Positions 869 through 59,366 of a DNA stretch of 64,000 nt are shown piece by piece. The translations under genes were made by a program, and so were the position numbers. Numbering within the stretch: position 1 is the stretch's first letter; each line of letters starts with the position of its first letter. The DNA lies in NCBI GenBank assembly GCA_001799565.1, contig MGTS01000020.1:1104-65103 (forward strand), read 5' to 3'. This DNA comes from Elusimicrobia bacterium GWA2_51_34. GTDB taxonomy: Bacteria > Elusimicrobiota > Elusimicrobia > Elusimicrobiales > UBA9959. A model generated the notes under the pieces. It did no database searches. It was not told where the DNA came from and saw nothing but the letters and a program-made list of their open reading frames with translations.

Positions 869-917
869 CAGTAACCAGTAACCAGTAACCAGTAACCAGT
901 AACCAGTAACCAGTAAC
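869..917. repeat. Perfect tandem heptamer (CAGTAAC)x7 (rplK-rplA spacer)
   Basis: There are seven exact copies, flanked by degenerate units. No complementary arm was found. Confidence 0.95.
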
Positions 918-5946: not shown

Positions 5947-6150
5947 ATGCCCAAAATAAAAAGTCACAGCGGTTCCAAAAAAAGATTCAGGCGCACCGCT
6001 TCCGGCAAATGGCTGCACAGGAAATCCGGGTTGCGCCACCTGCTTACTGGAATGTCGTCCAAAAGGGGCCGCGGCCTCAGGACCGTGAAAGTGGAAGAGA
6101 AAAATTCAAGCGAGGGGAAGATCATGAGGGCATATCTTCCTTATGCCTGA
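5947..6150 (+). CDS. rpmI: 50S ribosomal protein L35
   Basis: 'MPKIKSHSGSKKRFRRTASGKWLHRKSGLRHLL' is L35-like. The infC-rpmI-rplT synteny is present. Confidence 0.9.
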   Translation: MPKIKSHSGSKKRFRRTASGKWLHRKSGLRHLLTGMSSKRGRGLRTVKVEEKNSSEGKIMRAYLPYA

Positions 6151-7686: not shown

Positions 7687-10212
7687 ATGAAAATATTATA
7701 TTCCTGGCTTTCTGATTTTATCGCCGCGCCTTTAGCGCCGGAAGAGCTTCAGGCAAAACTTGGCCGCATAGGGCTGAAAACCGAATCCATTTCCAAAACC
7801 GGCGCCGCCTTTGAGGGCGTGACTGTGGGCCGGATTTTGAAAATTGAAAAACATCCGAACGCCGACAAGCTTTCGCTCTGCGACGTGGATTCCGGCTCAG
7901 GCGTAACGCGCGTTGTCTGCGGCGCTAAAAACATAGCCGAGGGGCAGAAAATACTTTTTGCCAGAGTGGGCGCGAAACTCGCCGGCGGTGAGCTTAAAAA
8001 GGCTAAAATACGCGGCGTGGAATCGGAAGGCATGATATGTTCGGCTCCGGAACTGGGGCTTCCGGGTGACGGGTCTGCTTCGCTTAACAACAGCTTCGCA
8101 GGTCCGCGTCCCTTCGAAGCTCCGGTCAAAAACGCCGGAGCGAAGGAGGACGGCTCTGGTATTTTAGTCCTGCCTGAAAATTCTCCTGTAGGCGCCGACG
8201 CCAAAACTCTTTTTGAAAAGCCAGACCTTCTGCTAGAAATAGAGATGCTGCCGAATCTCGCCTACTGCCTTTCCCATTACGCCGTGGCGCGAGAGCTTTG
8301 CGCTTTTTACAACCTGCCTCTTAAAAAACCTGTTATGCCGGAACTTACCCCACCACCTGCTTCGGGACCGAAAGGGCCCGACAAAGTCGGGCAAGCAGGT
8401 GGTGGGGTTAAAACCCCAGCTCCCGCGCCGGTAACCATAGAAGAGCCGGGGCTGTGCGCACGCTACTCGGGCATAGTAATAAAAAATATCCCGCCGGTTC
8501 CAACGCCGCCTCAGATGGCGGCACGCCTTGCCGCCATGGGCTCAAAGGCGAAGGGCAACCTGCTTATAGACGTTTCAAATTATGTGATGTACGAGCTTGG
8601 TCAGCCCGTTCACTGCTTTGACCTGAACAAGCTTTCCGGCCCCGAAGTAAAAGTGCGCCGGGCAAAACCCGGCGAAACCCTTAAAACTATTGACGGTAAA
8701 ACCCTGAAGCTTGACGAAGATATGCTTGTTATAGCCGACCGTGAAAAACCGGCGGCGTTGGCCGGCGTTATGGGGGGGGCGGATAGCGCGGTTTCGGACG
8801 CCACCACGGCCATACTTATAGAATCCGCCTGGTTTGAACCGTCCGCGGTGCGGCGCGCCTCAAAAAAAGCGGGTATTAAAAGCGAGTCCTCGTACCGCTT
8901 TGAGCGCGGTGTTGACCCCGAACTTCAGCTTTGCGCGGCGCTGCGCGTAGCCCAGTTGATACTTGCCGAAGTGCCTGGCGCTAGCCTTGAACAGATTTCA
9001 GATGTGAATCCGGTGAAATATGTGCCGGCTGCGGTTGAGGCCGACCCCGCGCGGATAAACGCCATTCTTGGCACGGAAATACCGGAACAGGATATTTTCG
9101 CCTGCCTTAAAGCGATCTCGCCCTCAATTAAAGATGAAAAGCCCTGGACTTTCTATCCCCCAAGCTACAGGCGCGACATTGAGTCCGCCTGGGACCTGGC
9201 CGAGGAAGTGGCGCGTTACAGCGGATATGACGTTATTCCCGTGCGCTCCAGTATGAAAATGATGAGCGCCTCCGTCACGCCCGCTTTTGAAGCTGCGGGG
9301 GAACTGCGCGCGCGTTTGTCCGCGCTGGGATTCTCTGAAGTATATAATTACGATTTCATTTCTCTTAAAGAATTGCAAAATTGCCTTTTAAACGAGGCGG
9401 CGGCGATTTCGCTTAAAAACCCTCTCTCTTCCGATTTCCAGTTCCTGCGGCCGTCGCTGGTGACGGGGCTTTTAAAAGCCCTTGATTACAATATCAACCG
9501 CGGCCGAAATTCCGCCGCCATTTTTGAGACCGGCACGGTTTATTCAAAGTCTGGTGCGCAGGGTAAGGAAGAGATATGCTGCTCCGGCCTTATGTTCGGC
9601 TCTTTTCCAGCGGAGCTGTTCTGGAAAGGCGGCGCTGACAGCGCTGATTTGTACCATCTTAAAGGCGTTATGGATTACGCATTTTCCGGTAAAAGCGGGT
9701 TCCGCTTTGAAAAACCGAAGTCAGCCCCCGCCTATTTCCAGCCGGGCGCCGTTCTTGAAATGAAACTTGGCGCGGGAACGGCGGGCTTTCTTGGCCTTCT
9801 AAACTCCACGGCTGTTGTAAACAGCGGCCTTAAGGACGTGAAAATTTATTATTTTGAAATACTGCTCTCCGCGCTCGCCCGGTCCCGGAAGGCCGACTTC
9901 TGGCAGAGAGTCTCCCAGGTGAAACCGGTGTCAGCCTACCCCGCCATCTGGCGTGATTTGTCGGTGGTTCTTGAAGACAAATACGAGTGGGCGGAACTTG
10001 AACGTGAGGTGGTAAAAACGCAGGATCTGGCCCGCGTGGAACTTATTGACGTTTATAAGGGCAAAAATATAGACGGGAACCTGCGCAGCGTCACCATCCG
10101 GTTCACTTTCTCTTCCATGGAAAAAACGCTTACCGACTCCGAAATAAACGGCCATATGGCCGCCATCCTTGAAAAGTTGTCCAAGAAATTTTCCGCCAAA
10201 CTCCGAAGTTAA
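7687..10212 (+). CDS. pheT: Phenylalanine--tRNA ligase beta subunit carrying two in-frame repeat insertions
   Basis: An 841-aa ORF after pheS. It has the N-terminal tRNA-binding domain 'KIEKHPNADKLSLCDVD..RGVESEGMICSAPELGL' and a C-terminal anticodon-binding-like end. Confidence 0.92.
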   Translation: MKILYSWLSDFIAAPLAPEELQAKLGRIGLKTESISKTGAAFEGVTVGRILKIEKHPNADKLSLCDVDSGSGVTRVVCGAKNIAEGQKILFARVGAKLAGGELKKAKIRGVESEGMICSAPELGLPGDGSASLNNSFAGPRPFEAPVKNAGAKEDGSGILVLPENSPVGADAKTLFEKPDLLLEIEMLPNLAYCLSHYAVARELCAFYNLPLKKPVMPELTPPPASGPKGPDKVGQAGGGVKTPAPAPVTIEEPGLCARYSGIVIKNIPPVPTPPQMAARLAAMGSKAKGNLLIDVSNYVMYELGQPVHCFDLNKLSGPEVKVRRAKPGETLKTIDGKTLKLDEDMLVIADREKPAALAGVMGGADSAVSDATTAILIESAWFEPSAVRRASKKAGIKSESSYRFERGVDPELQLCAALRVAQLILAEVPGASLEQISDVNPVKYVPAAVEADPARINAILGTEIPEQDIFACLKAISPSIKDEKPWTFYPPSYRRDIESAWDLAEEVARYSGYDVIPVRSSMKMMSASVTPAFEAAGELRARLSALGFSEVYNYDFISLKELQNCLLNEAAAISLKNPLSSDFQFLRPSLVTGLLKALDYNINRGRNSAAIFETGTVYSKSGAQGKEEICCSGLMFGSFPAELFWKGGADSADLYHLKGVMDYAFSGKSGFRFEKPKSAPAYFQPGAVLEMKLGAGTAGFLGLLNSTAVVNSGLKDVKIYYFEILLSALARSRKADFWQRVSQVKPVSAYPAIWRDLSVVLEDKYEWAELEREVVKTQDLARVELIDVYKGKNIDGNLRSVTIRFTFSSMEKTLTDSEINGHMAAILEKLSKKFSAKLRS
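8075..8153 (+). repeat. In-frame GC-rich palindromic element, family 1, inside pheT
   Basis: Positions 8075-8120 match recN 42410-42455 at 45 of 46 nt. The tail CGAAGGAGGACGG is also shared. The internal hairpin is CCTTCGAAGCTCCGG-TCAAAAACG-CCGGAGCGAAGG. It translates to 'ASLNNSFAGPRPFEAPVKNAGAKEDG' within the otherwise conserved 'SEGMICSAPELGL..GILVLP' region. Confidence 0.9.
8348..8407 (+). repeat. In-frame palindromic element, family 2 (60 nt), inside pheT
   Basis: CCCCACCACCTGCTT...AAGCAGGTGGTGGGG forms 15-bp terminal inverted repeats with the inner hairpin CCCGAC-AAA-GTCGGG. It translates to 'PPPASGPKGPDKVGQAGGGV'. Confidence 0.9.
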
Positions 10213-10266
10213 TCGGAAGATAATACCTGATAGGGAGCCGGCAAATTTCCCACGCGCTCCGGGACC

Positions 10267-10373
10267 GGGATGGGGAGCGGGCCAGTCATGGGATTGCCCT
10301 TGCGCCGCGTAGGAAACCGTCCGCCTAAGGCGGACGCCCGCTGAAGTAGCGGGCGGTTTCCCTCCTCCCATCC
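10267..10373. repeat. GC-rich nested-hairpin element downstream of pheT
   Basis: The outer pairing is GGATGGG/CCCATCC and the closing pairing is GGAAAC/GTTTCC. These enclose two hairpins: TCCGCC-TAA-GGCGGA (10320-10334) and CGCCCGC-TGAAGTA-GCGGGCG (10335-10355). Confidence 0.75.
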
Positions 10374-10653
10374 GCTATGCGGCTACAGAGCAAACCCATG
10401 CCCGGCCCTTAAAGGAAGTTTTTAGTATCTGAAAGGATTTGCTAAAGGTGCGCGCAGAAAATCCGCCGGCTCCCTTTTTAAACAACATTTCCCCGCCCTT
10501 AATATAGATACATTTAGAATTGATTACTAAAACGAACACCATAAGTGTCCGAGCACTTTTTGCGAATGCGTTAAGGTAGGTGGGATCCGCTGAGCCTATT
10601 ACTGGGGCTGGTCAGTGACGCTAATTTTGGGCAGGTTCGAGGCGAGGATTGTT

Positions 10654-12845: not shown

Positions 12846-13737
12846 CTTTTTTCTCCAGTAATTTTTTCGCTTTTATCTTTGCCACCTCGTCCGGCAGGCG
12901 GGTATTGCCGTCTTTCGGTTCCGCCGCCAGCACGTAATTCAACAGCGTGTCAAAAAGCTCCGCGTCCTGCGCCGCCACGGCGGCCATCTTCGCGTACATG
13001 AAGCGGTTCAATAAAAAATCCCCGCCTTCGCCTTTTAGCGCCAGTTCAAAGCGGGCCTTGGCCTTGTCTGGGTCCCCGCCCAGTATGCGCGGGCGTATGG
13101 AATAGTAAGCGCCCAGAATGCTTTGCGCCCCGTTGTAGTAGTAGCCGGGCTGAAGCGTCAGTATTTTTTCGGCCGCGGGTTCAATGCCGGGGAGTTCCGC
13201 CACGGCTTCGGGCTTATCCCTGTTGATATTTATGTAGGACGCCTTGCAGAAGGTCTGCCAGAAGAGCGGGGGGACATCCTTTTTTTTCGCGTTTTGGGTG
13301 GTAATCCCCTTCAGCGCGCGCGAAGCGTAAGTCTCGCCTTTAAGGTAGAAGATTGAGGCGCGCTCCGGGTTGTAGTCCTCCAGGAACATCAGGGCGTAGC
13401 CGCAGAAACCCTGCGCGGCGTTTATCAGCAGCTTGCGGTTGGCCGGGTCGTTTTGCAGCAGTATTTCCATCAACTGTAAATTGCCCGGCAGAGCCTCTTT
13501 AACATACTGCGTGTCGCTTTGGGCAAATACCGCCGGAAGGCCGCCGTCTATTATACCCGCCGTCTGGCGCACGGCCAGGCGGTTTAATGAGCACGCTGAA
13601 ATCAATGGAACGACAGCGAATAGCGAATAGCGAATAGCGAATAGCGAAGCGGCGAAGCAGCGAAGCAGCGGATGAATTCCGCTTCTGATTTTTAACCACT
13701 GACCACTGACCACTGACCACTGATTTATATTTTTCAC
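12832..13737 (-). CDS. Helical-repeat lipoprotein, probably a TatT-like (TPR-protein-associated TRAP, TPAT) accessory component
   Basis: It has the lipobox 'VVPLISAC' and is a helical 301-aa protein immediately upstream of the DctP-family gene, as in the Treponema tatT-tatP arrangement. The family assignment comes from context and memory, not from a search. The GTG start at 13737 is uncertain. Confidence 0.5.
   Translation of the reverse strand: MKNINQWSVVSGQWLKIRSGIHPLLRCFAASLFAIRYSLFAVVPLISACSLNRLAVRQTAGIIDGGLPAVFAQSDTQYVKEALPGNLQLMEILLQNDPANRKLLINAAQGFCGYALMFLEDYNPERASIFYLKGETYASRALKGITTQNAKKKDVPPLFWQTFCKASYININRDKPEAVAELPGIEPAAEKILTLQPGYYYNGAQSILGAYYSIRPRILGGDPDKAKARFELALKGEGGDFLLNRFMYAKMAAVAAQDAELFDTLLNYVLAAEPKDGNTRLPDEVAKIKAKKLLEKKDDLF
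13615..13723. repeat. Composite array (AGCGAAT)x4 + GCGAAGC units, a GAATTCC/TCTGATTTTTA core, then (CCACTGA)x4
   Basis: Two different perfect heptamer arrays flank the core, and they are not complementary to each other. The array lies in the 5' end of the TatT-like ORF. Confidence 0.9.
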
Positions 13738-23369: not shown

Positions 23370-24644
23370 ATGGCCGAAAATGATGAGGGCAGGCAGGATG
23401 ACAACGCCAGCGGCCACCGGCACTCCGGAGGCAGAAAAAAAGCGCTTATAGTTTCTGTGCTGCTCTTCCTTCTTTTTGGCGGCGGGATTTTCCTGTTTTT
23501 CGTGATTCAGGGCGCCGACGATTTAAAAGATAATAAAACGCGGAATTTTTCCTACGGTTCCGAGGCCAGGGCCGGAGTGAGCGCTTTTATGAAGTATCTT
23601 AGTTTTACCTCGGATGAGGTCGAATTTTCGGAGGCCGCCCGGGGAAGAAACGCGGCAAGGAGGCTGGATTCTTCCGCGGCCGGCCCGACTGCGGATATTT
23701 CCGACTGGATGGATAAGGGCGGCGCGGGCACTGGTTCTTCCGGCGGTTCGGCCGCTCCCGGCTCAAGGGGCTTCGGCGTTTCCATTCCCAGAATGGCGGC
23801 GAAAGGCGCGGGCCTTGGTTCCGCCGGCGGCGCGGGCACTAAATCTTCAGCCGGGCTTTCCAGATTCGGTTCAGGCGGAGACTCCGGTAATGTTGCTGTT
23901 TCAAAAGCCGGCGATCTTGGCGCCAGGGGCCCTGGCTCTAAAAACGCCGCGCTTTCGTCATTGCGCAATTCTCAGGCCTACCTGGGCGACGCGCTTAAAA
24001 GTTCTTCCGCCATGGAGGCTAAGGCCAAATGGGGGCAAAGTTTCGGCATGGGTGATAAGGGGGGAGGGGAGGCGCTTGCCTATAGCAAGAGCAGTTTGGC
24101 TAAACTTGATGCCATAAAAAGCGGGGAAATAACCAACCTTAAAACCAATGATCTTAAATCCCTTAAAATACCAGATGTCGGCGCCCCTGAAAAAGTCAAA
24201 TCAAGCGAGGCAGAAAATGCCGCACTCGACAAAATGAAGGAGGACGCCAAGGCGGGATTGACTAATCCGATGTTCGGTTCCATGGCCGGCGCTTTAGGCG
24301 CGAATAAAGGCGGAACCGGCGCGGGTAGAAATTCCACCCCTCCGCCGGAGATCACGCAGCTTGGAAATCTTCCCAAACCTGAGGGGCAATACTGTCCAAC
24401 GGCGGAAGGATGCCGTTTGGTCCCTGACAATGGAAGCGTATTCAAGGACAATGCGCCTACCTTCCAGCAGAACCCTGCCGGCGGCTGGCAGGCCACTTAT
24501 GAGGGGCAGCAGACGGGCCCTGACGGCCGCGTTACATACTATAAGGATATCGTTCCTCTTAATCCGGGCGGTAATCCGCAGTTCGGTCCTCCTATCTCAT
24601 TTGAGGGGGCCAGTTCAAACGGCCTCATGCGGGTTGCACAGTAA
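23370..24644 (+). CDS. Cluster protein P1: N-terminally anchored Gly/Ser/Ala-rich low-complexity protein, unknown family
   Basis: 'MAENDEGRQDD..GGRKKALIVSVLLFLLFGGGIFLFFVIQG' gives a charged N-terminus followed by one TM. About 300 aa of G/S/A-rich sequence follows, then a roughly 90-aa C-terminal region with 2 Cys ('CPTAEGCRLVPDNG..'). The ATG at 23370 follows a G6 run. Confidence 0.7.
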   Translation: MAENDEGRQDDNASGHRHSGGRKKALIVSVLLFLLFGGGIFLFFVIQGADDLKDNKTRNFSYGSEARAGVSAFMKYLSFTSDEVEFSEAARGRNAARRLDSSAAGPTADISDWMDKGGAGTGSSGGSAAPGSRGFGVSIPRMAAKGAGLGSAGGAGTKSSAGLSRFGSGGDSGNVAVSKAGDLGARGPGSKNAALSSLRNSQAYLGDALKSSSAMEAKAKWGQSFGMGDKGGGEALAYSKSSLAKLDAIKSGEITNLKTNDLKSLKIPDVGAPEKVKSSEAENAALDKMKEDAKAGLTNPMFGSMAGALGANKGGTGAGRNSTPPPEITQLGNLPKPEGQYCPTAEGCRLVPDNGSVFKDNAPTFQQNPAGGWQATYEGQQTGPDGRVTYYKDIVPLNPGGNPQFGPPISFEGASSNGLMRVAQ

Positions 24645-36478: not shown

Positions 36479-38362
36479 ATGCCTTACGAAAATCTTGCTT
36501 CCAAATACCGGCCCAAAAATCTTAATGAGGTTCTGGGTCAGGAAACTGTAAAGCGTACCCTGACCAATGCCGTTAAACTTGGCCGCATAGCCCCCTCTTA
36601 TGTTTTTTACGGGCCGCGTGGAACCGGCAAAACCACTATCGCCCGCATACTTGCCAAAACTTTAAACTGCCATAACCCGGCGGGCGCCGTGCCCTGCGAC
36701 AAGTGTGCCTCCTGCTTAGAAATAGCCGGGAGCAAATCCCTTGATGTGATAGAAATAGACGCCGCTTCCAATACGCAGGTGGATAAAGTGCGCAATGTGA
36801 TAATTGAGAATGTGGCTTTCGCTCCTTCCCGTGATAAATATAAGGTTTACATTCTGGACGAAGTGCACATGCTTACCACCCAGGCCTTCAACGCGCTTTT
36901 AAAGACTGTGGAAGAGCCGCCGGCTCATGTGGTATTTATAATGGCCACCACTGAACAGCATAAGGTGCCTGTTACCATACTTTCTCGTTCGCAGTGCTTC
37001 CGTTTCAGGCCGCTTTCGGAAGAAATAATGTTTGAGAGGCTGAAGGCAGTGGCTGAAAAGGAAAAAATAAAATCCGAGCCGGAAGCTCTTGCAATGATCG
37101 CCAGAGCCTCCTGCGGCTCTATGCGCGATGCTATGACGCTTCTTGACCGGGCAATTTCCTTCGGCAGGGGCGAGGTAAAGACGGAGGTTTTAAACGAACT
37201 TCTGGGCCATGCCGGTGAGGATATTATAAACTCACTCGCGCTCGCGCTCGTCAACAGGGACAGCGCCGCCCTTCACGCCGCTTTTGACAAGCTCAACTCC
37301 GAGGGCTACGACACTCTTACGGCGCTTCGCGACCTTCGCGATCTTTTAGCCGGAACTTTTTTTTATCTCCAGAAATTTTCCAGCGCTTCCACCGCTTTGG
37401 CCCGAGCCCTGCCGAAAGATCTGTCGGCTTCGGCACTCGCCAAGTTGTCTAGAAAAGTTAATTTAGCCGTTGAGGAAGTGAAATTTTCCGATTCTCTGGC
37501 CATAGCGGCGGAGATGGCGCTATTTACCCTTGTGGACACGCCGCAGGACATTGACGCTTTGGTCAGGCGGCTTGAGGGACTTGAACTGCGTCTCGCCCCA
37601 CCACCCGCTTCGGGACCGGCAGTGCCCGCCTCCGCCAAACAACTCGGCGGATCCGCCTCAGTCGGAAAAGTCGGGCAAGCAGGTGGTGGGGTCGGCGGAC
37701 AGGGCCGGCCTCCGGTCATAGAGCCTTGCGCCGCGCTTCCTCCCGTGCAAAAAAAAAATGATATTTTAGAGACACAGCCGGGAAAATCAGGGCCAGACGC
37801 CGGTGGTCAGAGGTTACAGGAAGAAGATTCAGGTATTTCTCTGCCTGTCACCTGCCACCTGCCGCCTGTCACCTCTGGTGCGGTCGCGCAAACCCCTCCT
37901 TCCGCTCTCTGGAAAAAACTGCTTGTACACATAGCGTCTAAAAAGCCGATGGTCTACAATATGCTGCTTTCCGTAAAAATTACTTTTGACAGTGAGACGA
38001 AGTGGCGCCTTAGTTTGCCGAATAAATTTGAAGCGGGTATGATAGAGAAGGCCCGGCCTGAGCTTGAGGAGGCTATGCAAAACCTCTCCGGCAGAAAAAT
38101 AGAGTTTGTTATAGAACATCCGGTTGCCGTTAAATCAGCCGTTCCTGTGCTTGAAGATTTATCCGCTCCACAGGTTTCTTCGGATGTTGAGCCGGAGGCA
38201 GAAGTACTAACCGGTCCCCAGGAGCCGGAAGGCCGCTGGGAAGACCTGCCGGAAGCCGGCGTTTCAGATATTGAACCTGAACTTAAAAAACTTTCAAAAG
38301 TGTTTCACGGCAGCAAGATAACAAAAGTAAGTAAAAAAACCGTGCAAGGGAAAAGCGAATAG
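36479..38362 (+). CDS. dnaX: DNA polymerase III subunit tau (gamma possibly produced from the A10 site)
   Basis: It contains 'YRPKNLNEVLGQE', the Walker A 'GPRGTGKTT', the Zn module 'CHNPAGAVPCDKCASC' and 'YILDEVHMLT'. The ORF is 627 aa. Confidence 0.92.
   Translation: MPYENLASKYRPKNLNEVLGQETVKRTLTNAVKLGRIAPSYVFYGPRGTGKTTIARILAKTLNCHNPAGAVPCDKCASCLEIAGSKSLDVIEIDAASNTQVDKVRNVIIENVAFAPSRDKYKVYILDEVHMLTTQAFNALLKTVEEPPAHVVFIMATTEQHKVPVTILSRSQCFRFRPLSEEIMFERLKAVAEKEKIKSEPEALAMIARASCGSMRDAMTLLDRAISFGRGEVKTEVLNELLGHAGEDIINSLALALVNRDSAALHAAFDKLNSEGYDTLTALRDLRDLLAGTFFYLQKFSSASTALARALPKDLSASALAKLSRKVNLAVEEVKFSDSLAIAAEMALFTLVDTPQDIDALVRRLEGLELRLAPPPASGPAVPASAKQLGGSASVGKVGQAGGGVGGQGRPPVIEPCAALPPVQKKNDILETQPGKSGPDAGGQRLQEEDSGISLPVTCHLPPVTSGAVAQTPPSALWKKLLVHIASKKPMVYNMLLSVKITFDSETKWRLSLPNKFEAGMIEKARPELEEAMQNLSGRKIEFVIEHPVAVKSAVPVLEDLSAPQVSSDVEPEAEVLTGPQEPEGRWEDLPEAGVSDIEPELKKLSKVFHGSKITKVSKKTVQGKSE
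37596..37691 (+). repeat. In-frame palindromic element, family 2 (96 nt), inside dnaX
   Basis: CCCCACCACCCGCTTCGGGACC...GTCGGGCAAGCAGGTGGTGGGG has the same termini as 8348-8407 with a longer interior. It translates to 'PPPASGPAVPASAKQLGGSASVGKVGQAGGGV'. Confidence 0.9.
37749..37758 (+). promoter_or_regulatory. A10 slippery run inside dnaX (candidate tau/gamma recoding site)
   Basis: The sequence is gtg caa aaa aaa aat gat at codons 423-427. The -1 frame reads AAA TGA (stop). The +1 frame reads ATG ATA TTT TAG (stop). Confidence 0.5.
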
Positions 38363-42108: not shown

Positions 42109-43878
42109 ATGCTGAAAAAACTTACTGTTAAAAATTTTGCGCTTATAGAAAAACTGGAGCTTGAGCCGGGGCCGGGGCTTAATGTGTTCACCGGAGAAAC
42201 AGGGGCCGGCAAGTCCATAATTATCTCCGCCCTCGGTTTTCTTTTGGGGGAGAGAGCGGGATCAGATGTGGTGCGCCCGGGGGCAGCAATGGCTGAGGTT
42301 TACGGCGAATTTTCCTCCGCCGGACTTAACCGCGAACTGCTTGAAAGTTTCGGTCTTGCGGGCGGGTCAGTCGTGGACAGCGCCATAGGCCCACGACAGG
42401 CCAGTGTCACTGCTTCGCTTAACAACAGCTTCGCAGGACCGCGTCCCTTCGAAGCCTTGGCGAAGGAGGACGGTTTTATTACGCTTAAGCGGCAGACTGA
42501 CTCTAATGGGCGTACAAGGTCTTTTATTAACGCCAGGCAGGTTCCGCTTTCCCGTGTTTCAGCTCTGGGTTCGGCGCTGGTGGATTTTCACGGGCAGAAT
42601 GAGCATCAGAGCCTGCTTAAAATGGAAGTGCAGCGCGCTCTTCTTGACCGCTATGGCCGCCTTGAAAAACAGGCTGATGCCGTGCGTGAGGCTTTCCTGG
42701 AAGCGCAGATACTGCGCGGCCGTCTTGAAGCGGTTTCAATGTCGGAACAGGAACGGGAGCGCCTGTTTGATCTTTACCGCTTCCAGCTTAAAGAAATAGA
42801 GGAAGCCGCGCTAAAACCCGGCCAGGAGGCCGAGCTTGAGGCGCTGTATCCCAGGTTGAAAAACGCCGAAAAGCTTTTCACTCTTTCAAACGCCGCCCAT
42901 GAGCTAGCGGCCGGGTCCGAGTGCGCAGCCAAGACTAACCTTGAAAAGGCTCTTGAAAAACTAAAGGCATTGGGCGAGCTCGACGAAGGCGCTCCGGCGC
43001 TTGCCGCCAGGCTTGAAAACACGCTTATTGAATTAGGCGATATTTCCGAGGAGCTTTATAAATACTCAAAAGGGCTTGATACCGACCCGGCCAGGCTTGA
43101 TGCCTGCCTCTCCCGGCTTGAACAGATATCCCTGCTTAAGAAAAAATACGGTCCAGATGAAAATTCCGTTATTGCCAAAGGGGCGGAACTTAAAAATAAA
43201 ATAGCCGGGCTTGAAGACCTCAGCCTTAACCGTGCCGACGCGGGCAAAGCTCTTGAAAAAAGCGAAGCGCTCCTTCTTAAGCTCGCGCGCTCGCTGCATA
43301 CCGCGCGGCGCGGCGCCGCGGTAAAGCTGTCCGCCCGTACAAAAGACGAAGCGGCGGAACTCGGATTTAAAGAGTTGCGTTTTGAGGTGGCAGTGGAAGC
43401 GGAGGAGGATAATATATCCTCATCCGGTTGTGATGCCGTGGAATATCTTTTTTCGGCTAACCCGGGTTATCCGCTGCGCCCTTTAAGATACACGGCTTCC
43501 GGCGGTGAAATGTCCCGTGTAATGCTTGCCCTTAAAACAGTGCTCGCCGCCGCCGACAGAATAGGGATACTTGTCTTTGACGAGGTGGATACGGGGGTAG
43601 GCGCGGTAACAGGGCGGCTGGTAGGACAAAAGCTTTGCCGGCTTTCCACTGGAAAACAGATCTTCTGCATAACCCATCTGCCGCAGGTGGCCGCTTTCGC
43701 GGAAAAGCATTTCATCGTTGAAAAGACTTCGCTTAATAAATCTTCCACCGTCATGACACACGCGCTTTCCGCCGCGGATAGAACCGCTGAAATAGCCCGT
43801 ATGCTTGGCGGGAAAAAGCAATTCACGGACCTCGGCCTCAAGCATGCCCGCGAGCTGCTGGCTGAATCCGGAATATAG
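42109..43878 (+). CDS. recN: DNA repair protein RecN carrying an in-frame repeat insertion
   Basis: It contains 'MLKKLTVKNFALIEKLELEPGPGLNVFTGETGAGKSI' (Walker A), an SMC-like coiled coil, the signature 'ASGGEMSRVMLALK' and 'LVFDEVDTGVG'. The ATG at 42109 was preferred because the track start at 42055 lies in a repeat loop. Confidence 0.9.
   Translation: MLKKLTVKNFALIEKLELEPGPGLNVFTGETGAGKSIIISALGFLLGERAGSDVVRPGAAMAEVYGEFSSAGLNRELLESFGLAGGSVVDSAIGPRQASVTASLNNSFAGPRPFEALAKEDGFITLKRQTDSNGRTRSFINARQVPLSRVSALGSALVDFHGQNEHQSLLKMEVQRALLDRYGRLEKQADAVREAFLEAQILRGRLEAVSMSEQERERLFDLYRFQLKEIEEAALKPGQEAELEALYPRLKNAEKLFTLSNAAHELAAGSECAAKTNLEKALEKLKALGELDEGAPALAARLENTLIELGDISEELYKYSKGLDTDPARLDACLSRLEQISLLKKKYGPDENSVIAKGAELKNKIAGLEDLSLNRADAGKALEKSEALLLKLARSLHTARRGAAVKLSARTKDEAAELGFKELRFEVAVEAEEDNISSSGCDAVEYLFSANPGYPLRPLRYTASGGEMSRVMLALKTVLAAADRIGILVFDEVDTGVGAVTGRLVGQKLCRLSTGKQIFCITHLPQVAAFAEKHFIVEKTSLNKSSTVMTHALSAADRTAEIARMLGGKKQFTDLGLKHARELLAESGI
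42397..42473 (+). repeat. In-frame GC-rich palindromic element, family 1 (short form), inside recN
   Basis: It shares the 46-mer and tail with pheT, and the inner hairpin is replaced by CTTGG. Its first 16 nt, CAGGCCAGTGTCACTG, are identical to noncoding 30985-31000. It translates to 'ASVTASLNNSFAGPRPFEALAKEDG'. Confidence 0.9.
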
Positions 43879-45546: not shown

Positions 45547-48219
45547 ATGAAATACTGGTTCTATTCCGAAGGCAATATTCTTGGCCCCTACGCCCCCGGC
45601 GAACTGCTTACTCTGCCGGCTTTCGCGCAGGACAGCCTTGTTTGCCTTGAAACTTCCACCGGAGATAAACCGGATGACTGGAAGCCGGCTTCCCAAGCGG
45701 AGGAAATAGAGGAAGCTTTAAGTGTGGGAGCCGGTAAATCAATTTCTTCAGGCTATGGCGGCATTGGGGATCTTTACGCGCTTGAAACCGGTTTTTCACA
45801 AGTGTCAACACCCGTCTATGAAAGCGCCTTTGAACAGGGCTATGCCTGTGAAAATCTGCTGGGCACAATAGACGATATTCTTAAGACCGGGGACGGCGGT
45901 TCTGCCGGCGAGCCTGAGATATCGGCCTATTCCGCTTCAGGTGGCCTGTCCGCAACTGAGTGGAAAAGTTCTTTTGACTATGACCAGATGGATAAATTTG
46001 ATGTTCCTCTCTCAAAAATACAGGAGGATCTGGAATTGGCCCGCTGGGAAAAAGACCTTTTGCAGGAAAAAGTAAGACTGAAGGACCTGGAGGACAGGAA
46101 ACAGCGTGATCGTATAGAGGAATTGGAAGTCAGGCTGAAGACGGTGCTGGACCAGGGCGGCGCCATGGAAAAAGAATTTGAGCAGTTGCGCCAATCCTCA
46201 GGAGGTTCCGTCCCAGAGGCCGCTGGCCCACAAAACGGCCGTCTGGAGGATTTAACGGAACAGGCCGAAACCGTAAGAAAGACGGAAGAAATTAACAAAG
46301 ATAATTCAGCTGAACTCTCGTGCGCTTCTTCGGCCGGGCCGAAAAATACGATTAACGAAAAAGACATTAGAGTTTTAAAGAACCTGAGGGTTTCCGATGA
46401 GGTAAAACTTGAAAGGCTTGGTGACAGCGATGACGCCGCGCAAGCTGGAAATAGCATTACCAGCCGCAGGCTGAAAAGCCTGGGCGGAAGCGCTAAAAGC
46501 CAGGAAGGCCCCGGCTTATTGGCGGAGGATGAGGCGACATCCAGCCAAACCGGGGGAGGGGCGCCCAGTATTGAACCGCCGCCGCTTGCAACTCCGGAGC
46601 CAAAGCCTGAGACATTGTCCGCATTAAACGGCGGAGCCCTTTCCGTGGATTTGCCGCAGGGGGACGCCGCACAGCGGCCTCCCTTGCTGCCGGCCACTAC
46701 CGGTAATTTGGAGTCTTTGCCTAAGTCGGACGGGGTGATTCAGGACTTTACAGCTGAAACTCCAAAAAGCGAAGAGCCTTTTAAAAAGACGCAGATCAAT
46801 TCAGGGTTGCCTGGCCATGGCGGATTTCCTGATCATGCAGGTTCCGTTTCCCAATCCTTTGGAGGTGCCGTCCCAGAGGCCTTTGGCCCACAAAACGGCC
46901 AATCCTTTGGAGGTGCCGTCCCAGAGGCCGCTGGCCCACAAAACGGCCAATCCTTTGGAGGAGGGGAAACCGCATTTGCGGTGTCCCCTCAGTCGCGGAC
47001 GACGCCAGGCCGGATGACAGCGCCGGAGGCCACCGGCACGCCAGAGTCAGAGGCCCGCGACAGGTCAGAGCCACAGCCGGTGGGAAAGGGTGTCCCAGAG
47101 GCCTCAGCCGCGGAGGCTATTCAGGATCAGGCACAAAAAGCGCCTGACTCCACCCCTGTCAAACAGCAGCCGGTTTCCGTTCCGGATAAAATGGCGCGCA
47201 TAACAATATCCGGCAATGGGCTGAAAACGGAGGTTGAATCCCAGGTCAAACCGGCCAGAAAAGGCGGAAGACTGGCATTTATCGCTATCATCATAATTTT
47301 TGGCGCCATAGCTGCGGGAGGGCTTGGTTTCTTCTTTCTTGGCGATGGCCTCAGCTTTTCAGAATTTTCAATGCTTGATTTCAATTCTTTAAAACGCGCC
47401 CAAAAAAGCATCATGCCTTCTCAGCTTGAACCGCAGGTTAGCGATAAAAACGCTGGCCAATCCACCGAAGTTGCCGTCGCGGGGGCCTCAGATGCGGACA
47501 GCGCCAGTGTCCCGCAACAGGTCAGCGTCTCCGGTCAGCAAAACGGTCTGCCGGCAGCGGAGAACGCGGTAAAAAGCGTTCCTGAAAACCAGTCCGGAGG
47601 GGCTCAAAGCCCTGCCACAGCTGCGGAGCAGTCGCCTGAAAAAACTTCCGCGCCGCTTGCCGTAAATGAGGGAGTTAAAACCGCGATTGAGACAGTTAAA
47701 AACTACAAATTATCCGGAGGCAGGGGCGCTATCGGCGGCTGGTTTGCCAATTCTTTTCTTTCTGGTTCTTCCGGCGCCGCGTCCGAAGAGTGGTCGGCAA
47801 CTCCGCTTCACGGAGATATTCTTGTTGTGCAGTATCGCCTGATAAGGCAAAAGCAGGACCCGCTTATTTATCAATTTGAAGTGGACGGCGCAAAAAACGA
47901 CATAATCCGCGGTATCAACAATAATGCCATAGAACTGCTGGATTTCTCCTCCGGAAAAACAGAACAGTCCGCGGTTTACGCTCCTAAACCGGAAGGTCGG
48001 GTAAGAAAAATATCGGCAAAAAAACTTTCCGCCAAAGCTAAACTGGTGAGAAAGCCAGGCAAGTCTAAAGGAGTCCCTTTACTCCCGCTGCCGGACGCGC
48101 CGGCGGCTGGCCTTAACAACGAAGATGAGGATTCAGCCGGTTTTGAAGATGCTCAATCGGATAACGGGGAAAAGGTGGAATACATAAAAGCTCAGGAATC
48201 CGACGAGGAGTTGTTCTAG
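45547..48219 (+). CDS. GYF_2 (DUF4339)-domain protein with coiled coil, internal repeats, one TM and a C-terminal domain
   Basis: The N-terminus 'MKYWFYSEGNILGPYAPGELLTLPAF' is GYF_2-like. It also has a coiled-coil 'LQEKVRLKDLEDRKQRDRIEELEVRLK', 'SFGGAVPEA(F/A)GPQNGQ' repeats and the TM 'LAFIAIIIIFGAIAAGGLGFFFLG'. It lies directly upstream of pilB. Confidence 0.65.
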   Translation: MKYWFYSEGNILGPYAPGELLTLPAFAQDSLVCLETSTGDKPDDWKPASQAEEIEEALSVGAGKSISSGYGGIGDLYALETGFSQVSTPVYESAFEQGYACENLLGTIDDILKTGDGGSAGEPEISAYSASGGLSATEWKSSFDYDQMDKFDVPLSKIQEDLELARWEKDLLQEKVRLKDLEDRKQRDRIEELEVRLKTVLDQGGAMEKEFEQLRQSSGGSVPEAAGPQNGRLEDLTEQAETVRKTEEINKDNSAELSCASSAGPKNTINEKDIRVLKNLRVSDEVKLERLGDSDDAAQAGNSITSRRLKSLGGSAKSQEGPGLLAEDEATSSQTGGGAPSIEPPPLATPEPKPETLSALNGGALSVDLPQGDAAQRPPLLPATTGNLESLPKSDGVIQDFTAETPKSEEPFKKTQINSGLPGHGGFPDHAGSVSQSFGGAVPEAFGPQNGQSFGGAVPEAAGPQNGQSFGGGETAFAVSPQSRTTPGRMTAPEATGTPESEARDRSEPQPVGKGVPEASAAEAIQDQAQKAPDSTPVKQQPVSVPDKMARITISGNGLKTEVESQVKPARKGGRLAFIAIIIIFGAIAAGGLGFFFLGDGLSFSEFSMLDFNSLKRAQKSIMPSQLEPQVSDKNAGQSTEVAVAGASDADSASVPQQVSVSGQQNGLPAAENAVKSVPENQSGGAQSPATAAEQSPEKTSAPLAVNEGVKTAIETVKNYKLSGGRGAIGGWFANSFLSGSSGAASEEWSATPLHGDILVVQYRLIRQKQDPLIYQFEVDGAKNDIIRGINNNAIELLDFSSGKTEQSAVYAPKPEGRVRKISAKKLSAKAKLVRKPGKSKGVPLLPLPDAPAAGLNNEDEDSAGFEDAQSDNGEKVEYIKAQESDEELF
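46853..46962 (+). repeat. 48-nt tandem repeat (2.3 copies) inside the GYF-domain gene, with dispersed copies at 46201-46250 and about 47085-47110
   Basis: The unit is AATCCTTTGGAGGTGCCGTCCCAGAGGCC(TTT/GCT)GGCCCACAAAACGGCC. It contains the small palindromes CCAGAGGCCTTTGG and TTGGCC..GGCCAA. The CAAAACGGCC module also occurs in noncoding 31005-31016. Confidence 0.9.
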
Positions 48220-56185: not shown

Positions 56186-56314
56186 GAAAGAGCCGGCAGG
56201 TTTGTTTGCGGAGGTTTCCGGAGGCCGACTTGGGCTTGCAGTCAGGGGAGGTCGAGGATAAGGGCGGCCGCGCTGGCCGACCCGGCCTCCGCGGGCAAAC
56301 CTGCCGGCTCTTTC
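56186..56314. repeat. 129-bp GC-rich element with 19-bp perfect terminal inverted repeats (MITE-like)
   Basis: GAAAGAGCCGGCAGGTTTG (56186-56204) pairs with CAAACCTGCCGGCTCTTTC (56296-56314). The inverted repeat extends to about 29 bp with 3 mismatches. It sits in an otherwise AT-rich region. Confidence 0.85.
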
Positions 56315-57898: not shown

Positions 57899-59193
57899 AA
57901 TTCTGCCTTGCCGCGCAGTAGCCGGTGGTAACGTACGGCGAAGCGGTGGGCTTCGTTCCGCAGGGCCTCCAGCAGCAACAGGCCGGGGTGCGCCCGGTCA
58001 AGGATCAGCGGGAAAGCCCGGCCCGGCATGTAAATTTCCTCAAGGCGCTTCGCGAGCCCTATAACCGGTATCTTCATTTCAGCCGCGCGCAGCGCCTTCA
58101 TCGCCGCCGCAAGCTGCCCCGGCCCTCCGTCAATAACCAGCAGATCCGGCGGAGGCTCGCCGCTCTTCTTTACCTGTGCAAGCCGCCTGCCGACAATTTC
58201 CTCCATCATCGCAAAATCATTGCCGCCTTCCGGAACATTGCGGAAATTTACCCGGTATCTGCGGTAGTGCGCCGTGTTCTTCTCGCCGTTGATAACACAA
58301 ACCGAGGACCCGACCGCCTGCTTCCCGAAGAGGCTTGAGGTGTCAAAAGCCTCTATGTGGGCGGGGGGCCGCGCCAGGGCCAGCGCCGTTTTAAGCGCCG
58401 TCACTGCCCCTGTGCGCCCGGTTGCCAGCTCCATGAAATTTTCCGGCAGACGGTTGACAAAAACCCGCTCCCGCATATGGTCAAAGGCGGACAAAAAATC
58501 ACGGTACTGAGCGGCTTCCTCGTACGCGAGTTTTTTTACGGAGAGCGCCATTTTAAGGCGGAAGGCGCCGCGCAGCTTTCCCAAATCCCCTTTAAGAAAA
58601 TCCGCCACACGCCCGGTCAAAGCGGCGTAAGCGGTTTTTGATATTTTCCCGGCGCAGGGGGCGGGGCATTGGCCGGTATGGTAGTAAAGACAGGCGTTTA
58701 TTTTGCGCGCATTAAGCGGTTTCGCAAGTGAAAAATCCCAGCGGCAGCGGCGCAGATTTATAAATTTTATGCGCCACAAATAACCGAAAAGTTTTTTGAG
58801 CGGTTCCATTTTAGGGTAAGGGCCGAAATAGGCCGCGCCGTCGCGCGGTTTGGCGCGCGTGAAAAAAACGCGGGGGAAATCTTCGCGCGTTATTTTCACG
58901 TACGGATAGGACTTGGAGTCCTTCCACATCTCGTTAAAAAAGGGCTGATAACGATGGATAAGCGTGCGTTCGGTTAACAGCGCCTCCCGTTCGCTTGCGG
59001 AAGCTACATAATCTATGGAGCGGATAAGCGCCGTCAGGCTGGGAATCTTGCGCCTGCCGTCGGAGGGGTTCTTTTTAAAATACTGCGCCACCCTTTTTTT
59101 CAGGTCCTTCGCCTTGCCGATATAGATTATGGCGCCTGAAACGTCGCGCATCAGGTAAACGCCGGGAGAAGCGGGAAGGTGGGTGAGGTCCAT
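57889..59193 (-). CDS. uvrC: UvrC-like excinuclease subunit lacking the C-terminal (HhH)2 domain
   Basis: It has GIY-YIG 'GVYLMRDVSGAIIYIGKAKDLKKRVAQYF', the UVR motif 'YEEAAQYRDFLSAFDHM' and an RNase H-like 'IEAFDTSSLFG..LLVIDGGPGQL..IGLAKRLEEIY'. It ends right after 'NEAHRFAVRYHRLLR' at 434 aa. Confidence 0.8.
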   Translation of the reverse strand: MDLTHLPASPGVYLMRDVSGAIIYIGKAKDLKKRVAQYFKKNPSDGRRKIPSLTALIRSIDYVASASEREALLTERTLIHRYQPFFNEMWKDSKSYPYVKITREDFPRVFFTRAKPRDGAAYFGPYPKMEPLKKLFGYLWRIKFINLRRCRWDFSLAKPLNARKINACLYYHTGQCPAPCAGKISKTAYAALTGRVADFLKGDLGKLRGAFRLKMALSVKKLAYEEAAQYRDFLSAFDHMRERVFVNRLPENFMELATGRTGAVTALKTALALARPPAHIEAFDTSSLFGKQAVGSSVCVINGEKNTAHYRRYRVNFRNVPEGGNDFAMMEEIVGRRLAQVKKSGEPPPDLLVIDGGPGQLAAAMKALRAAEMKIPVIGLAKRLEEIYMPGRAFPLILDRAHPGLLLLEALRNEAHRFAVRYHRLLRGKAELEG

Positions 59194-59210
59194 ATTTAAG
59201 AAACTTCATT

Positions 59211-59362
59211 TGCCTTAAGCCATAAGGGCGCCGCGCCCGCTATAAGCCGTAAATTTTAGATATGGCTATTGCCTTAGGCCATAAGCCGTAAGCCATATGT
59301 CAGTAAGAAACTCCTTAAAAGCTTATGTAGTCTTTCTGCTTATGGCTTACGGCTTATGGCAG
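59211..59362. repeat. GCCATAAG-type composite periodic element (murJ-uvrC spacer)
   Basis: GCCTTAGGCCATAAGCCGTAAGCCATATG ... GCTTATGGCTTACGGCTTATGGCAGCC. The loop contains GAAACTCCT (59307-59315). A second partial copy lies at 59211-59270. Confidence 0.85.
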
Positions 59363-59366
59363 CCGG

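What the first reader, a model, noticed from the sequence alone, without database searches (positions are those of the whole stretch)
37596..37691. Second in-frame palindromic element family, with CCCCACCACCYGCTT / AAGCAGGTGGTGGGG termini, in dnaX and pheT
Seen: the 60-nt copy in pheT (8348-8407) and the 96-nt copy in dnaX (37596-37691) share 15-bp terminal inverted repeats and the inner GTCGGG arm. Both lengths are multiples of 3, and both are read in the same frame ('PPPASGP...VGQAGGGV'). In dnaX the element sits in the linker about 20 codons upstream of the A10 run. pheT therefore carries two different element families. Inference: this is the same biology as family 1. Selection has retained only frame-preserving insertions that encode a Pro/Gly-rich flexible loop.
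Basis: partly seen in the sequence, partly recalled or inferred. Interest (0 to 1): 0.7.

Follow-up and report, generated by a model that had tools for sequence, protein, structure and literature searches.

The report
In-frame mobile palindromic element (MITE)
Two essential genes (dnaX and pheT) of an uncultured Elusimicrobia bacterium each carry a small transposon-like palindromic insert that is translated as a floppy loop; the same element family occurs in four bacterial phyla, so this is a new example of a known oddity first seen in Rickettsia.

Summary
[quoted passage not shown] Both have the 15-nt terminal inverted repeats CCCCACCACCYGCTT / AAGCAGGTGGTGGGG. Each is flanked by a perfect 3-bp target-site duplication (TTA; TCG). 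Close orthologues lack both inserts, and the pheT empty site matches to the base. The dnaX allele recurs in 18 contigs from several independent assemblies.

A TIR-pair scan found about 60 more copies in Elusimicrobia, Omnitrophota, Planctomycetia and Auribacterota MAGs:
- 50 of 64 copies have perfect 3-bp duplications, and 44 of those are TNA. This is the signature reported for IS5-family IS1031-group transposases.
- Copies inside real genes all have lengths divisible by three.
- About half of the other copies sit exactly on a gene's stop codon.

For the window's own subfamily, 14 of 14 loci read in the PPPA...AGGG frame. Strand is biased (11:3) but not fixed. AlphaFold gives pLDDT below 50 only at the inserts and two short loops.

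No autonomous partner element was found. This is a new MITE family that behaves like Rickettsia palindromic elements, so it is a new member of a known kind.

The parts
37593..37595 (+). left target-site duplication (TCG) of the dnaX copy
   Evidence: Identical TCG on both sides of the element. Removing the element plus one TCG gives CTCGGCGGACAGGGC, the same length as the empty site CTCGCCGAACAGGGC in orthologue P0004/L057.
37596..37610 (+). left terminal inverted repeat CCCCACCACCCGCTT (dnaX copy)
   Evidence: I25, 93% complementary to the right arm.
37611..37676 (+). 66-nt interior of the dnaX copy, made of hairpin modules; it holds 36 nt that the pheT copy lacks
   Evidence: Alignment. The 96-nt form recurs almost unchanged in L180, and a 123-nt form in L185, so it is a true length variant and not a nested insert. 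Folds.
37677..37691 (+). right terminal inverted repeat AAGCAGGTGGTGGGG (dnaX copy)
37692..37694 (+). right target-site duplication (TCG) of the dnaX copy
8345..8347 (+). left target-site duplication (TTA) of the pheT copy
   Evidence: The empty site in orthologue P0122/L179 is GAAATTAAAACC.
8348..8362 (+). left terminal inverted repeat CCCCACCACCTGCTT (pheT copy)
   Evidence: I15, 100% complementary.
8363..8392 (+). 30-nt interior of the pheT copy, including the hairpin GCCCGAC-AAA-GTCGGGC
   Evidence: MFE -26.3 kcal/mol, z = -7.0 for the whole element.
8393..8407 (+). right terminal inverted repeat AAGCAGGTGGTGGGG (pheT copy)
8408..8410 (+). right target-site duplication (TTA) of the pheT copy
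36479..38362 (+). host gene dnaX (DNA polymerase III tau/gamma, 627 aa). The insert is aa 373-405, in the variable linker after domain III
   Evidence: The identical protein is found on 18 contigs from several assemblies.
7687..10212 (+). host gene pheT (PheRS beta subunit, 841 aa). The insert is aa 221-241, between the tRNA-binding/B2 part and the B3_4 domain
   Evidence: In the AlphaFold model pLDDT is below 50 at 226-242, at 135-156 and at two short segments (522-528, 643-648); mean pLDDT is 84.9.

Best explanation
The two segments are copies of a non-autonomous DNA transposon (a MITE).

Anatomy: 15-16 nt terminal inverted repeats YCCCACCACCYGCTT enclose one to three short GC-rich hairpin modules. 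Total length is 45-124 nt, with no coding capacity of its own.

Mobilisation (inferred): a transposase supplied in trans cuts the target with a 3-nt stagger, preferably at TNA. This leaves a 3-bp duplication.

Which insertions survive: the element lands anywhere, but only harmless insertions persist.
- Insertions exactly on a stop codon (TGA or TAA) survive because the duplication regenerates the stop.
- Insertions inside genes survive when element plus duplication is a multiple of three, the reading frame has no stop, and the encoded peptide is innocuous.

The window's subfamily: the 60-, 96- and 123-nt forms are all 3n in length. They are read in the phase that turns the TIRs into PPPA...AGGG and the interior into a small, uncharged Pro/Gly/Ala/Ser/Lys peptide. 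In dnaX and pheT this peptide is translated as an extra disordered loop in a variable linker, and the enzymes stay functional.

Shown: TIRs, duplications, empty sites, dispersal, the 3n rule, the frame rule, the disordered prediction.

Inferred: translation of the insert, neutrality of the insert, and the identity of the transposase (IS5-family, IS1031-group-like).
For: TIRs and far-above-chance recurrence.

Perfect 3-bp flanking duplications at both window copies, and at 50 of 64 copies overall. Of those 50, 44 are TNA: TCA 17, TGA 15, TTA 7, TAA 5.

Empty sites:
- All PheT orthologues lack exactly 21 aa, and L179 has the uninterrupted target.
- DnaX orthologue P0004 is empty. P0003 keeps a 12-13 nt remnant of the left TIR, CCCCATCACCCGC.

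Dispersal: 53 loci in more than 20 MAG species labelled as four phyla, with several copies per genome, for example 7 loci in JACOVU01.

The 3n rule:
- 3n copies interrupt or separate Pfam domains in real proteins. Examples are MiaB-like, HI0933-like, GT4, GvpL/F, MBL-fold, ComB, MurJ, CCA-adding enzyme and RimP.
- Non-3n copies do not (Fisher p = 2e-14).

Stop-codon copies: 20 copies abut the stop codon of an ORF of at least 100 codons, against 3.4% of control TNA sites (p = 2.5e-14). Pfam confirms 19 of the 20 as genuine genes, and in several of them (PheT, FabH, CorC) the last domain runs to the last codon.

Frame: 14 of 14 subfamily loci are in the PPPA...AGGG phase (p about 6e-7). That frame has 0-1 bulky or Cys residues, against 1-11 in the other frames.

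Structure: in the AlphaFold PheT model, pLDDT is below 50 at the two inserts (135-156 and 226-242) and at two short loops.

Not an artefact: the identical insert-bearing DnaX is found on 18 contigs from independent assemblies.

The TNA 3-bp duplication is the reported hallmark of the IS1031 group of the IS5 family (PMC12016507).
Against: No autonomous element carrying these TIRs and a transposase was found in about 0.5 Mb of fetched loci or in viral contigs.

The one IS1031-group TIR I could read, ISLrh GAACCTGTCTAGTATCT, is unlike this one. The transposase assignment therefore rests on the duplication signature alone.

Neither public DNA collection scanned for the element holds the source genome, so its own copy number is unknown beyond 2 copies in 64 kb.

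Translation of the insert is inferred from the frame and length constraints, not observed.

The dnaX duplication (TCG) is not TNA.

Interiors differ greatly between lineages while the TIRs are identical. A simple recent-burst MITE model does not predict this.
Confidence: 0.85

Rival explanations
1. The segments are native low-complexity Pro/Gly linkers of DnaX and PheT. They look alike by convergence or composition and are not insertions.
For: Both lie in regions that vary in length and sequence among orthologues. The DnaX linker is Pro/Ala/Gly-rich in many relatives.
Against: Two unrelated genes share nucleotide-level identity over 15-nt ends plus the adjacent interior, with sharp boundaries. 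Orthologues at 83-84% identity lack exactly the insert, and the DNA empty site is exact. Both copies have flanking 3-bp duplications. The same sequence occurs in more than 10 unrelated proteins and in intergenic DNA.
Confidence: 0.01
2. It is a REP/REPIN-type extragenic palindrome spread by a RAYT (IS200/IS605-like Y1 transposase). That enzyme recognises hairpins and inserts without duplicating the target.
For: The elements are hairpin-rich. Many sit just after genes, as REPs do. Hairpin stems vary in sequence while staying complementary, which suggests recognition of structure.
Against: 50 of 64 copies carry a perfect 3-bp target duplication with a TNA consensus. Y1 transposition does not produce this (general knowledge of IS200/IS605). 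The ends are true terminal inverted repeats. There is no conserved GTAG-type motif. REP families are normally specific to a species, whereas these TIRs are identical across four phyla.
Confidence: 0.05
3. The inserts are not translated. They would be removed or skipped, as an intron-like RNA, an intein, or a translational-bypass element like the GC-rich palindromic 'byps' of yeast mitochondria or the T4 gene 60 gap.
For: They are GC-rich hairpin elements inside essential genes. Identical triplets flank them, which could in principle act as take-off and landing sites.
Against: Removal or bypass would not require a length of 3n or a stop-free frame. Yet every genic copy is 3n and open, and one phase is used in 14 of 14 loci. 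At 20-41 aa the inserts are far too short for an intein. There is no Rfam hit at gathering score, and only chance-level matches (E about 0.5-0.7) at the element.
Confidence: 0.03
4. The element is a domesticated structural module, not merely tolerated selfish DNA. It would act as an mRNA 3'-end hairpin (stabiliser or terminator) at stop codons, or as a useful flexible linker in proteins, and be kept by selection for that function.
For: Half of the non-genic copies sit exactly at stop codons. Hairpin stems covary, with 10 of 25 pairs showing double changes in the 78-81 nt class. This holds even between copies at the same site of orthologous ComB genes. The same sites were hit or retained repeatedly in RimP and ComB.
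Against: Enrichment at stop codons can also arise from a TNA target preference plus purifying selection in compact genomes. Hairpin covariation may reflect requirements of transposition. The inserts are absent from close orthologues that function without them. No T-run follows the hairpins. Element orientation relative to the gene is not fixed: L023 and L031 are opposite.
Confidence: 0.15
5. It is an assembly or binning artefact of a metagenome-assembled genome, for example a palindrome-induced chimera.
For: The source is a MAG, and palindromes can confuse assemblers.
Against: The exact 627-aa insert-bearing DnaX occurs on 18 contigs from at least six separately assembled samples and assemblers. 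PheT P0121 occurs on 7 contigs. Both inserts keep the reading frame and have target duplications.
Confidence: 0.01

Closest known systems
Rickettsia palindromic elements (RPE; Ogata et al. 2000, as summarised in PMC2229807 and PMC10969869)
   Same: Both are short palindromic mobile repeats found in intergenic DNA and, in frame, inside conserved housekeeping genes. Both encode a conserved peptide read in one frame. Both are placed where the protein fold tolerates an extra loop. Both can be absent from orthologues.
   Different: The hosts differ: Elusimicrobiota, Omnitrophota, Planctomycetota and Auribacterota rather than Rickettsia. The element here is shorter (45-124 nt against 105-150 nt). 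It has a clear 3-bp TNA target duplication, whereas the RPE entry for duplications is '?' in Delihas's table. Its 15-nt TIRs are identical across phyla while the interior varies greatly. It is strongly associated with stop codons. I did not test sequence similarity to RPEs.
Other bacterial MITEs found fused in frame (107-bp Correia/NEMIS of Neisseria, 127-bp ERIC, YPAL; Delihas 2007/2008, PMC2229807)
   Same: All have TIRs, target duplications and a stem-loop fold, and some length variants are stop-free and occur inside ORFs. The link between a length variant's open frames and its genic or intergenic location was also seen for the 107- and 155-bp Correia forms.
   Different: Those elements duplicate TA and belong to Proteobacteria. 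The duplication here is the 3-bp TNA, and the family spans several phyla.
IS5 family, IS1031 group insertion sequences
   Same: They prefer TNA targets and produce an exclusive 3-bp direct repeat (PMC12016507). This matches 44 of the 50 perfect duplications here.
   Different: Those are autonomous elements of 850-1050 bp that carry a DDE transposase. No such partner with these TIRs was found, and the one IS1031-group TIR I could read is unrelated in sequence. The link is a hypothesis about the mobilising enzyme, not a membership claim.
REP / BIME / REPIN elements with RAYT transposases
   Same: Both are GC-rich hairpins clustered at the 3' ends of genes, with conserved arms and variable loops.
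   Different: REPs make no target duplication, are extragenic and are specific to a species. This family makes TNA duplications, enters genes and is shared across phyla.

Membership tests
MITE (prokaryotic miniature inverted-repeat transposable element) | Terminal inverted repeats | tested here: met
   The 15-nt TIRs are 100% (pheT) and 93% (dnaX) complementary. They are conserved in all 64 copies, and the two variable TIR positions covary between the arms.
MITE (prokaryotic miniature inverted-repeat transposable element) | Target-site duplication flanking the element | tested here: met
   TTA/TTA and TCG/TCG in the window. Overall 50 of 64 copies are perfect, and 44 of those are TNA.
MITE (prokaryotic miniature inverted-repeat transposable element) | Small size with no transposase gene | tested here: met
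   The elements are 45-124 nt, and the interior consists of hairpins only.
MITE (prokaryotic miniature inverted-repeat transposable element) | Multiple dispersed copies at unrelated loci | tested here: met
   There are 2 copies in the window, 53 genome loci and 5 metagenome loci, with up to 7 loci in one MAG.
MITE (prokaryotic miniature inverted-repeat transposable element) | Presence/absence polymorphism with an intact empty site | tested here: met
   The pheT empty site in L179 is exact. The dnaX site in L057 is empty, and L054 keeps a TIR remnant.
MITE (prokaryotic miniature inverted-repeat transposable element) | An autonomous partner element with matching TIRs that encodes the transposase | tested here: inconclusive
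   None was found in the fetched loci or in viral contigs. Whole genomes could not be scanned.
IS5 family / IS1031-group derivative | 3-bp direct repeat at a TNA target | tested here: met
   44 of 50 perfect duplications are TNA. The family property is taken from PMC12016507.
IS5 family / IS1031-group derivative | TIRs shared with an IS1031-group IS, or a DDE transposase of that group in the host genomes | not testable with these tools
   No ISfinder access and no whole-genome access. The ISLrh TIR is dissimilar.
Rickettsia palindromic elements (RPE) | In-frame insertion in conserved genes, encoding a conserved peptide in one frame | tested here: met
   14 of 14 subfamily loci are in one phase.
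Rickettsia palindromic elements (RPE) | Sequence homology to RPE-1 to RPE-10 and a Rickettsia host | not tested
   The host is Elusimicrobia. No RPE sequence was available for comparison. The element is therefore filed as working like an RPE, not as an RPE.
REP/REPIN-RAYT | No target duplication; insertion by a Y1 transposase next to a conserved tetranucleotide | tested here: not met
   A 3-bp duplication is present in 50 of 64 copies.
Integron attC recombination site | R''/R' core sites (RYYYAAC ... GTTRRRY) at the ends of an imperfect palindrome downstream of a cassette ORF | tested here: not met
   The ends are CCCCACCACC.../...GGTGGTGGGG, read directly. Copies lie inside housekeeping genes.
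Known structured RNA families (Rfam 15) | Match at the gathering score | tested here: not met
   There are 0 matches in the whole window. At the element only chance-level hits appear, with E about 0.5-0.7.

The most novel reading that the evidence does not exclude
This MITE lineage may be specialised for two safe havens in compact genomes: stop codons and permissive protein loops. Its transposase would preferentially hit TNA, including TGA and TAA stop codons, which the duplication regenerates. Some sublineages (60, 96 and 123 nt) would have evolved to be 3n long, stop-free and benign when translated, and so live almost only inside genes. The hairpin modules would be under direct structural selection, since they covary even inside coding sequence. 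The identical TIRs in four phyla would point to a still unidentified, horizontally moving transposase. On this reading the family would be a widespread, ongoing source of new loops in essential proteins well beyond Rickettsia.
Probability: 0.25. Interest if true: 0.7.

Novelty: new member of a known kind. Interest (0 to 1): 0.55.

Why it matters
In-frame colonisation of essential genes by selfish palindromic DNA has been documented mainly in Rickettsia. A 2024 review only speculates that it happens elsewhere (PMC10969869).

This family shows the same behaviour in free-living, uncultured groundwater phyla. It has unusually clean hallmarks (TIRs, TNA duplications, exact empty sites) and a simple survival rule: a 3n length inside genes, or placement on a stop codon.

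It matters in three ways:
- It gives a tractable system for asking how transposons add loops to proteins.
- It warns annotators that 20-40 aa 'linkers' in MAG proteins may be transposon-derived.
- It offers a 15-nt marker for tracing horizontal exchange among Elusimicrobiota, Omnitrophota, Planctomycetota and Auribacterota.

Tried and rejected
- Viral contigs. The paired-TIR scan gave 0 hits. A single 14-mer scan gave 120 single, chance-level hits (L059-L178), which I ignored.
- Autonomous IS. I looked for TIR-like pairs 0.4-3.5 kb apart. I also looked for any 14+ nt inverted repeats 0.6-3 kb apart with a 3-bp duplication. Only neighbouring MITEs or chance matches turned up.
- Source-genome census. 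Neither the genome collection nor the metagenome collection holds the source contig, because the window copies were not returned. The copy number in Elusimicrobia GWC2_51_8 remains unknown.
- Solo left-end matches. L181, L184, L187 and L182 have no right end. L181, L184 and L187 are near-identical high-GC sequences from different samples, left unresolved as old remnants or chance.
- Degenerate hits in the window. The sites near 6033 and 58309-58323 have no partner arm and are not elements.
- Rfam. Nothing was found.
- Six-frame peptide query. Only 10 proteins passed E <= 10, because short low-complexity matches score poorly. This is a small sample, not a census.
- 'One strand only'. Rejected: three loci carry the reverse orientation, PPPAC...PEAGGG.
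- 'Always a Pro/Gly loop'. Rejected for the wider family: the 81-nt class reads PTTRLSRLKAG...SGWW.
- The hairpin as a dnaX frameshift stimulator. Rejected: it lies 57 nt upstream of the A10 run, not downstream.
Full report
**1. The observation**

The window comes from Elusimicrobia bacterium GWC2_51_8. Its DnaX and PheT proteins match that MAG's proteins at 100%.

The two segments are exactly as described:
- 8348-8407: CCCCACCACCTGCTT-30 nt-AAGCAGGTGGTGGGG, 60 nt.
- 37596-37691: CCCCACCACCCGCTT-66 nt-AAGCAGGTGGTGGGG, 96 nt.

The terminal 15-mer occurs four times without mismatch, as the two ends of each copy. Shuffles expect 0.28 matches at up to 2 mismatches. The paired pattern gives 2 matches against 0.00 expected.

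The dnaX copy is the pheT copy plus 36 internal nucleotides, and similarity ends abruptly at the repeats. Both fold into strong hairpins, with z of -4 to -7.5.

Both lie in long ORFs with full Pfam architectures: dnaX 36479-38362 and pheT 7687-10212. Both read PPPASGP...VGQAGGGV.

These are TTA at 8345-8347 and 8408-8410, and TCG at 37593-37595 and 37692-37694.

**2. They are insertions**

PheT:
- All 12 PheT orthologues aligned lack exactly the 21 residues TPPPASGPKGPDKVGQAGGGV. Three of them are 82-84% identical.
- At DNA level, orthologue L179 reads GAAATTAAAACC where the window reads GAACTTA[element]TTAAAACC. This is a textbook empty site.

DnaX:
- Relatives with 92-94% identity over the conserved N-terminal 372 aligned positions (78% overall) lack the 32-33 aa segment.
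- P0004 (L057) reads CTCGCCGAACAGGGC. This has the same length as the window sequence once the element and one TCG are removed.
- P0003 (L054) retains CCCCATCACCCGC, a 12-of-13 match to the left repeat. An element was therefore once there and was mostly deleted.

The insert-bearing DnaX is reproduced exactly on 18 contigs from several independently assembled samples. An assembly artefact is excluded.

**3. Census**

A scan of one genome per species for the paired repeats (13 + 13 nt, 21-81 nt apart) returned 53 loci. They come from MAGs labelled Elusimicrobia, Omnitrophota, Planctomycetia and Auribacterota. Further copies lie nearby in the same loci. The viral collection had none.

With the metagenome hits I analysed 64 elements of 54-124 nt (a diverged 45-nt relative in L186 was left out):
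- The 15-16 nt ends are essentially invariant. Their two variable positions covary between the arms.
- The interior varies greatly but is always built from one to three short GC-rich hairpins.
- 50 of 64 copies have a perfect 3-bp duplication: TCA 17, TGA 15, TTA 7, TAA 5 and six others. The consensus is TNA.

A 3-bp repeat at TNA is the reported signature of the IS1031 group of the IS5 family (PMC12016507).

**4. Where copies survive**

Copies with length divisible by three (27 of 64):
- Nearly all lie inside long ORFs that are real genes.
- Pfam domains flank or are split by the insert in MiaB-like, HI0933-like, GT4 glycosyltransferase, GvpL/F, metallo-beta-lactamase, ComB-like (two cases), MurJ, NuoA, CCA-adding enzyme, RimP and TPR proteins.

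Copies of other lengths (37 of 64):
- These are not inside verified genes.
- The few long ORFs that span them have no Pfam hit, and a genuine gene ends beside them.
- 3n length against genic location gives Fisher p = 2e-14.

Stop codons:
- 20 elements sit exactly on the stop codon of an ORF of at least 100 codons. In these cases the duplicated triplet is the stop codon itself.
- Only 3.4% of control TNA sites in the same loci are such stop codons (p = 2.5e-14).
- Pfam confirms 19 of the 20 as genuine genes, and in several (PheT FDX-ACB, FabH, CorC) the last domain ends at the last codon; others include TIM, GatC, NusB, TyrRS, argininosuccinate lyase and NuoN.
- I cannot tell whether this reflects target preference or only purifying selection in compact genomes. 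A rough neutral estimate of 10% is exceeded (19 of 37, p = 3e-10).

**5. Frame and strand**

A metagenome scan for the window's own subfamily (left end plus CGGGAC) found five more complete copies of 60, 96 and 123 nt. All are genic, and all read TPPPASGP...KVGQAGGGV.

A protein search with all six frames concatenated found ten proteins. Seven are in that reading and three are in the reverse orientation of the same phase, TPPPAC...PEAGGGV.

After removing overlaps, 14 of 14 loci use the PPPA...AGGG phase (p about 6e-7). Orientation is 11:3 (p = 0.06).

All six frames of the pheT copy, and of L188, are open; the other copies have up to four frames closed by stops. The frame used is the one with 0-1 bulky, aromatic or Cys residues and little charge; the others are Arg-, Trp-, Cys- or Leu-rich. 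This supports selection on the peptide.

Other subfamilies use other phases. The 78-81 nt class reads PTTRLSRLKAG...SGWW in 5 of 5 genic copies, and its PPPA phase contains a stop. The Pro/Gly loop is therefore a property of this subfamily and not of the whole family.

**6. Effect on the hosts**

In DnaX the insert lies after domain III, in the length-variable linker, 19 codons before the A10 run. In PheT it lies between the N-terminal tRNA-binding part and the B3_4 domain.

An AlphaFold model of PheT has mean pLDDT 84.9. Confidence drops below 50 at 135-156 (the other family's insert), at 226-242 (this insert) and at two short loops. This is consistent with tolerated surface loops.

The 3n constraint and the stop-free frame argue that the inserts are translated, not spliced or bypassed. 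Rfam finds no known RNA.

**7. Mechanism and comparison**

The best explanation is a MITE mobilised in trans by a transposase that makes a 3-nt staggered cut at TNA. Selection then leaves only copies at stop codons, in intergenic DNA, or in frame in permissive loops.

I could not find the autonomous partner. The IS5/IS1031-type assignment is therefore an inference from the duplication alone.

The behaviour is that of Rickettsia palindromic elements and of the intragenic Correia and ERIC variants (PMC2229807, PMC10969869). The family itself, its hosts, its TNA duplication, its TIR identity across phyla and its stop-codon habit are not described in the literature I could search.

I rate it a new member of a known kind, of moderate interest.

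Noticed in passing
window 37749-37758: The A10 run in dnaX lies inside the conserved QKKN(D) motif. Adding one A gives CAA AAA AAA AAA TGA. Losing one A gives ...ATG ATA TTT TAG. Either slip therefore ends the protein at once, as at the tau/gamma slippage sites of other dnaX genes. The run is conserved in L055 and L058, interrupted in L054 and absent in L057.
   Followed up: partly
window ~8067-8147 (pheT aa ~127-153); also 42366-42470, 30915-31011, 47006-47063, 47487-47544, 23382-23435: pheT carries a second in-frame insert of 81 nt (27 aa) that is absent from all orthologues. Its core, 8075-8120, is 98% identical to 42410-42455 and belongs to a larger repeat family in the window. AlphaFold gives pLDDT below 50 at 135-156.
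   Followed up: partly
L179 (PheT orthologue P0122), protein alignment columns 632-660: This close orthologue lacks both window inserts. It has its own 29-aa insert, GEGKTGCGVPSVVDNARGPRQASVTSVGK, at a different site. In-frame inserts therefore seem common in this lineage.
   Followed up: no
L037:1766-1846 and L047:4180-4257: Copies of 81 and 78 nt occupy the identical site of orthologous ComB-like genes in two species. In one species both flanking triplets are CAA, and in the other both are TAA. The first hairpin has entirely different but perfectly complementary stems. This could be recurrent insertion at a hot spot or compensated divergence.
   Followed up: partly
L185:6823-6945 and protein P0242: RimP carries this subfamily at the same junction (...GGGVTLDDCG) in two organisms. 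One has a 123-nt forward copy and the other a 60-nt reverse copy. This suggests re-insertion or in-situ inversion between the terminal repeats.
   Followed up: no
L001-L053 (64 elements): Among copies whose length is not 3n, 29 have length mod 3 = 2 and only 8 have mod 3 = 1. Several non-genic length classes are exactly 1 nt shorter than genic ones (59/60, 77/78, 95/96, 110/111). This is unexplained.
   Followed up: no
window 869-917, 1713-1805, 12699-12822, 13599-13650, 59207-59365, 60948-61066 and others: Intergenic regions are full of tandem heptamer repeats arranged as palindromes (CAGTAAC, GAATTCAGAAGTCAG, AATAGCG, GCTTATG). This looks like a separate and unusual repeat system.
   Followed up: no
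window 56186-56314 and 10232-10475: Two further palindromic elements have 29-nt arms (GAAAGAGCCGGCAGG... and AGGGAGCCGGCAAA...) separated by 71 and 186 nt. They may belong to another MITE family.
   Followed up: no
L054:~2060-2075 (DnaX orthologue P0003): A 12-13 nt remnant of the left terminal repeat, CCCCATCACCCGC, sits at the exact dnaX insertion site and adds four residues (PSPA). Old elements therefore decay by in-frame deletion and leave short Pro-rich footprints in proteins.
   Followed up: yes
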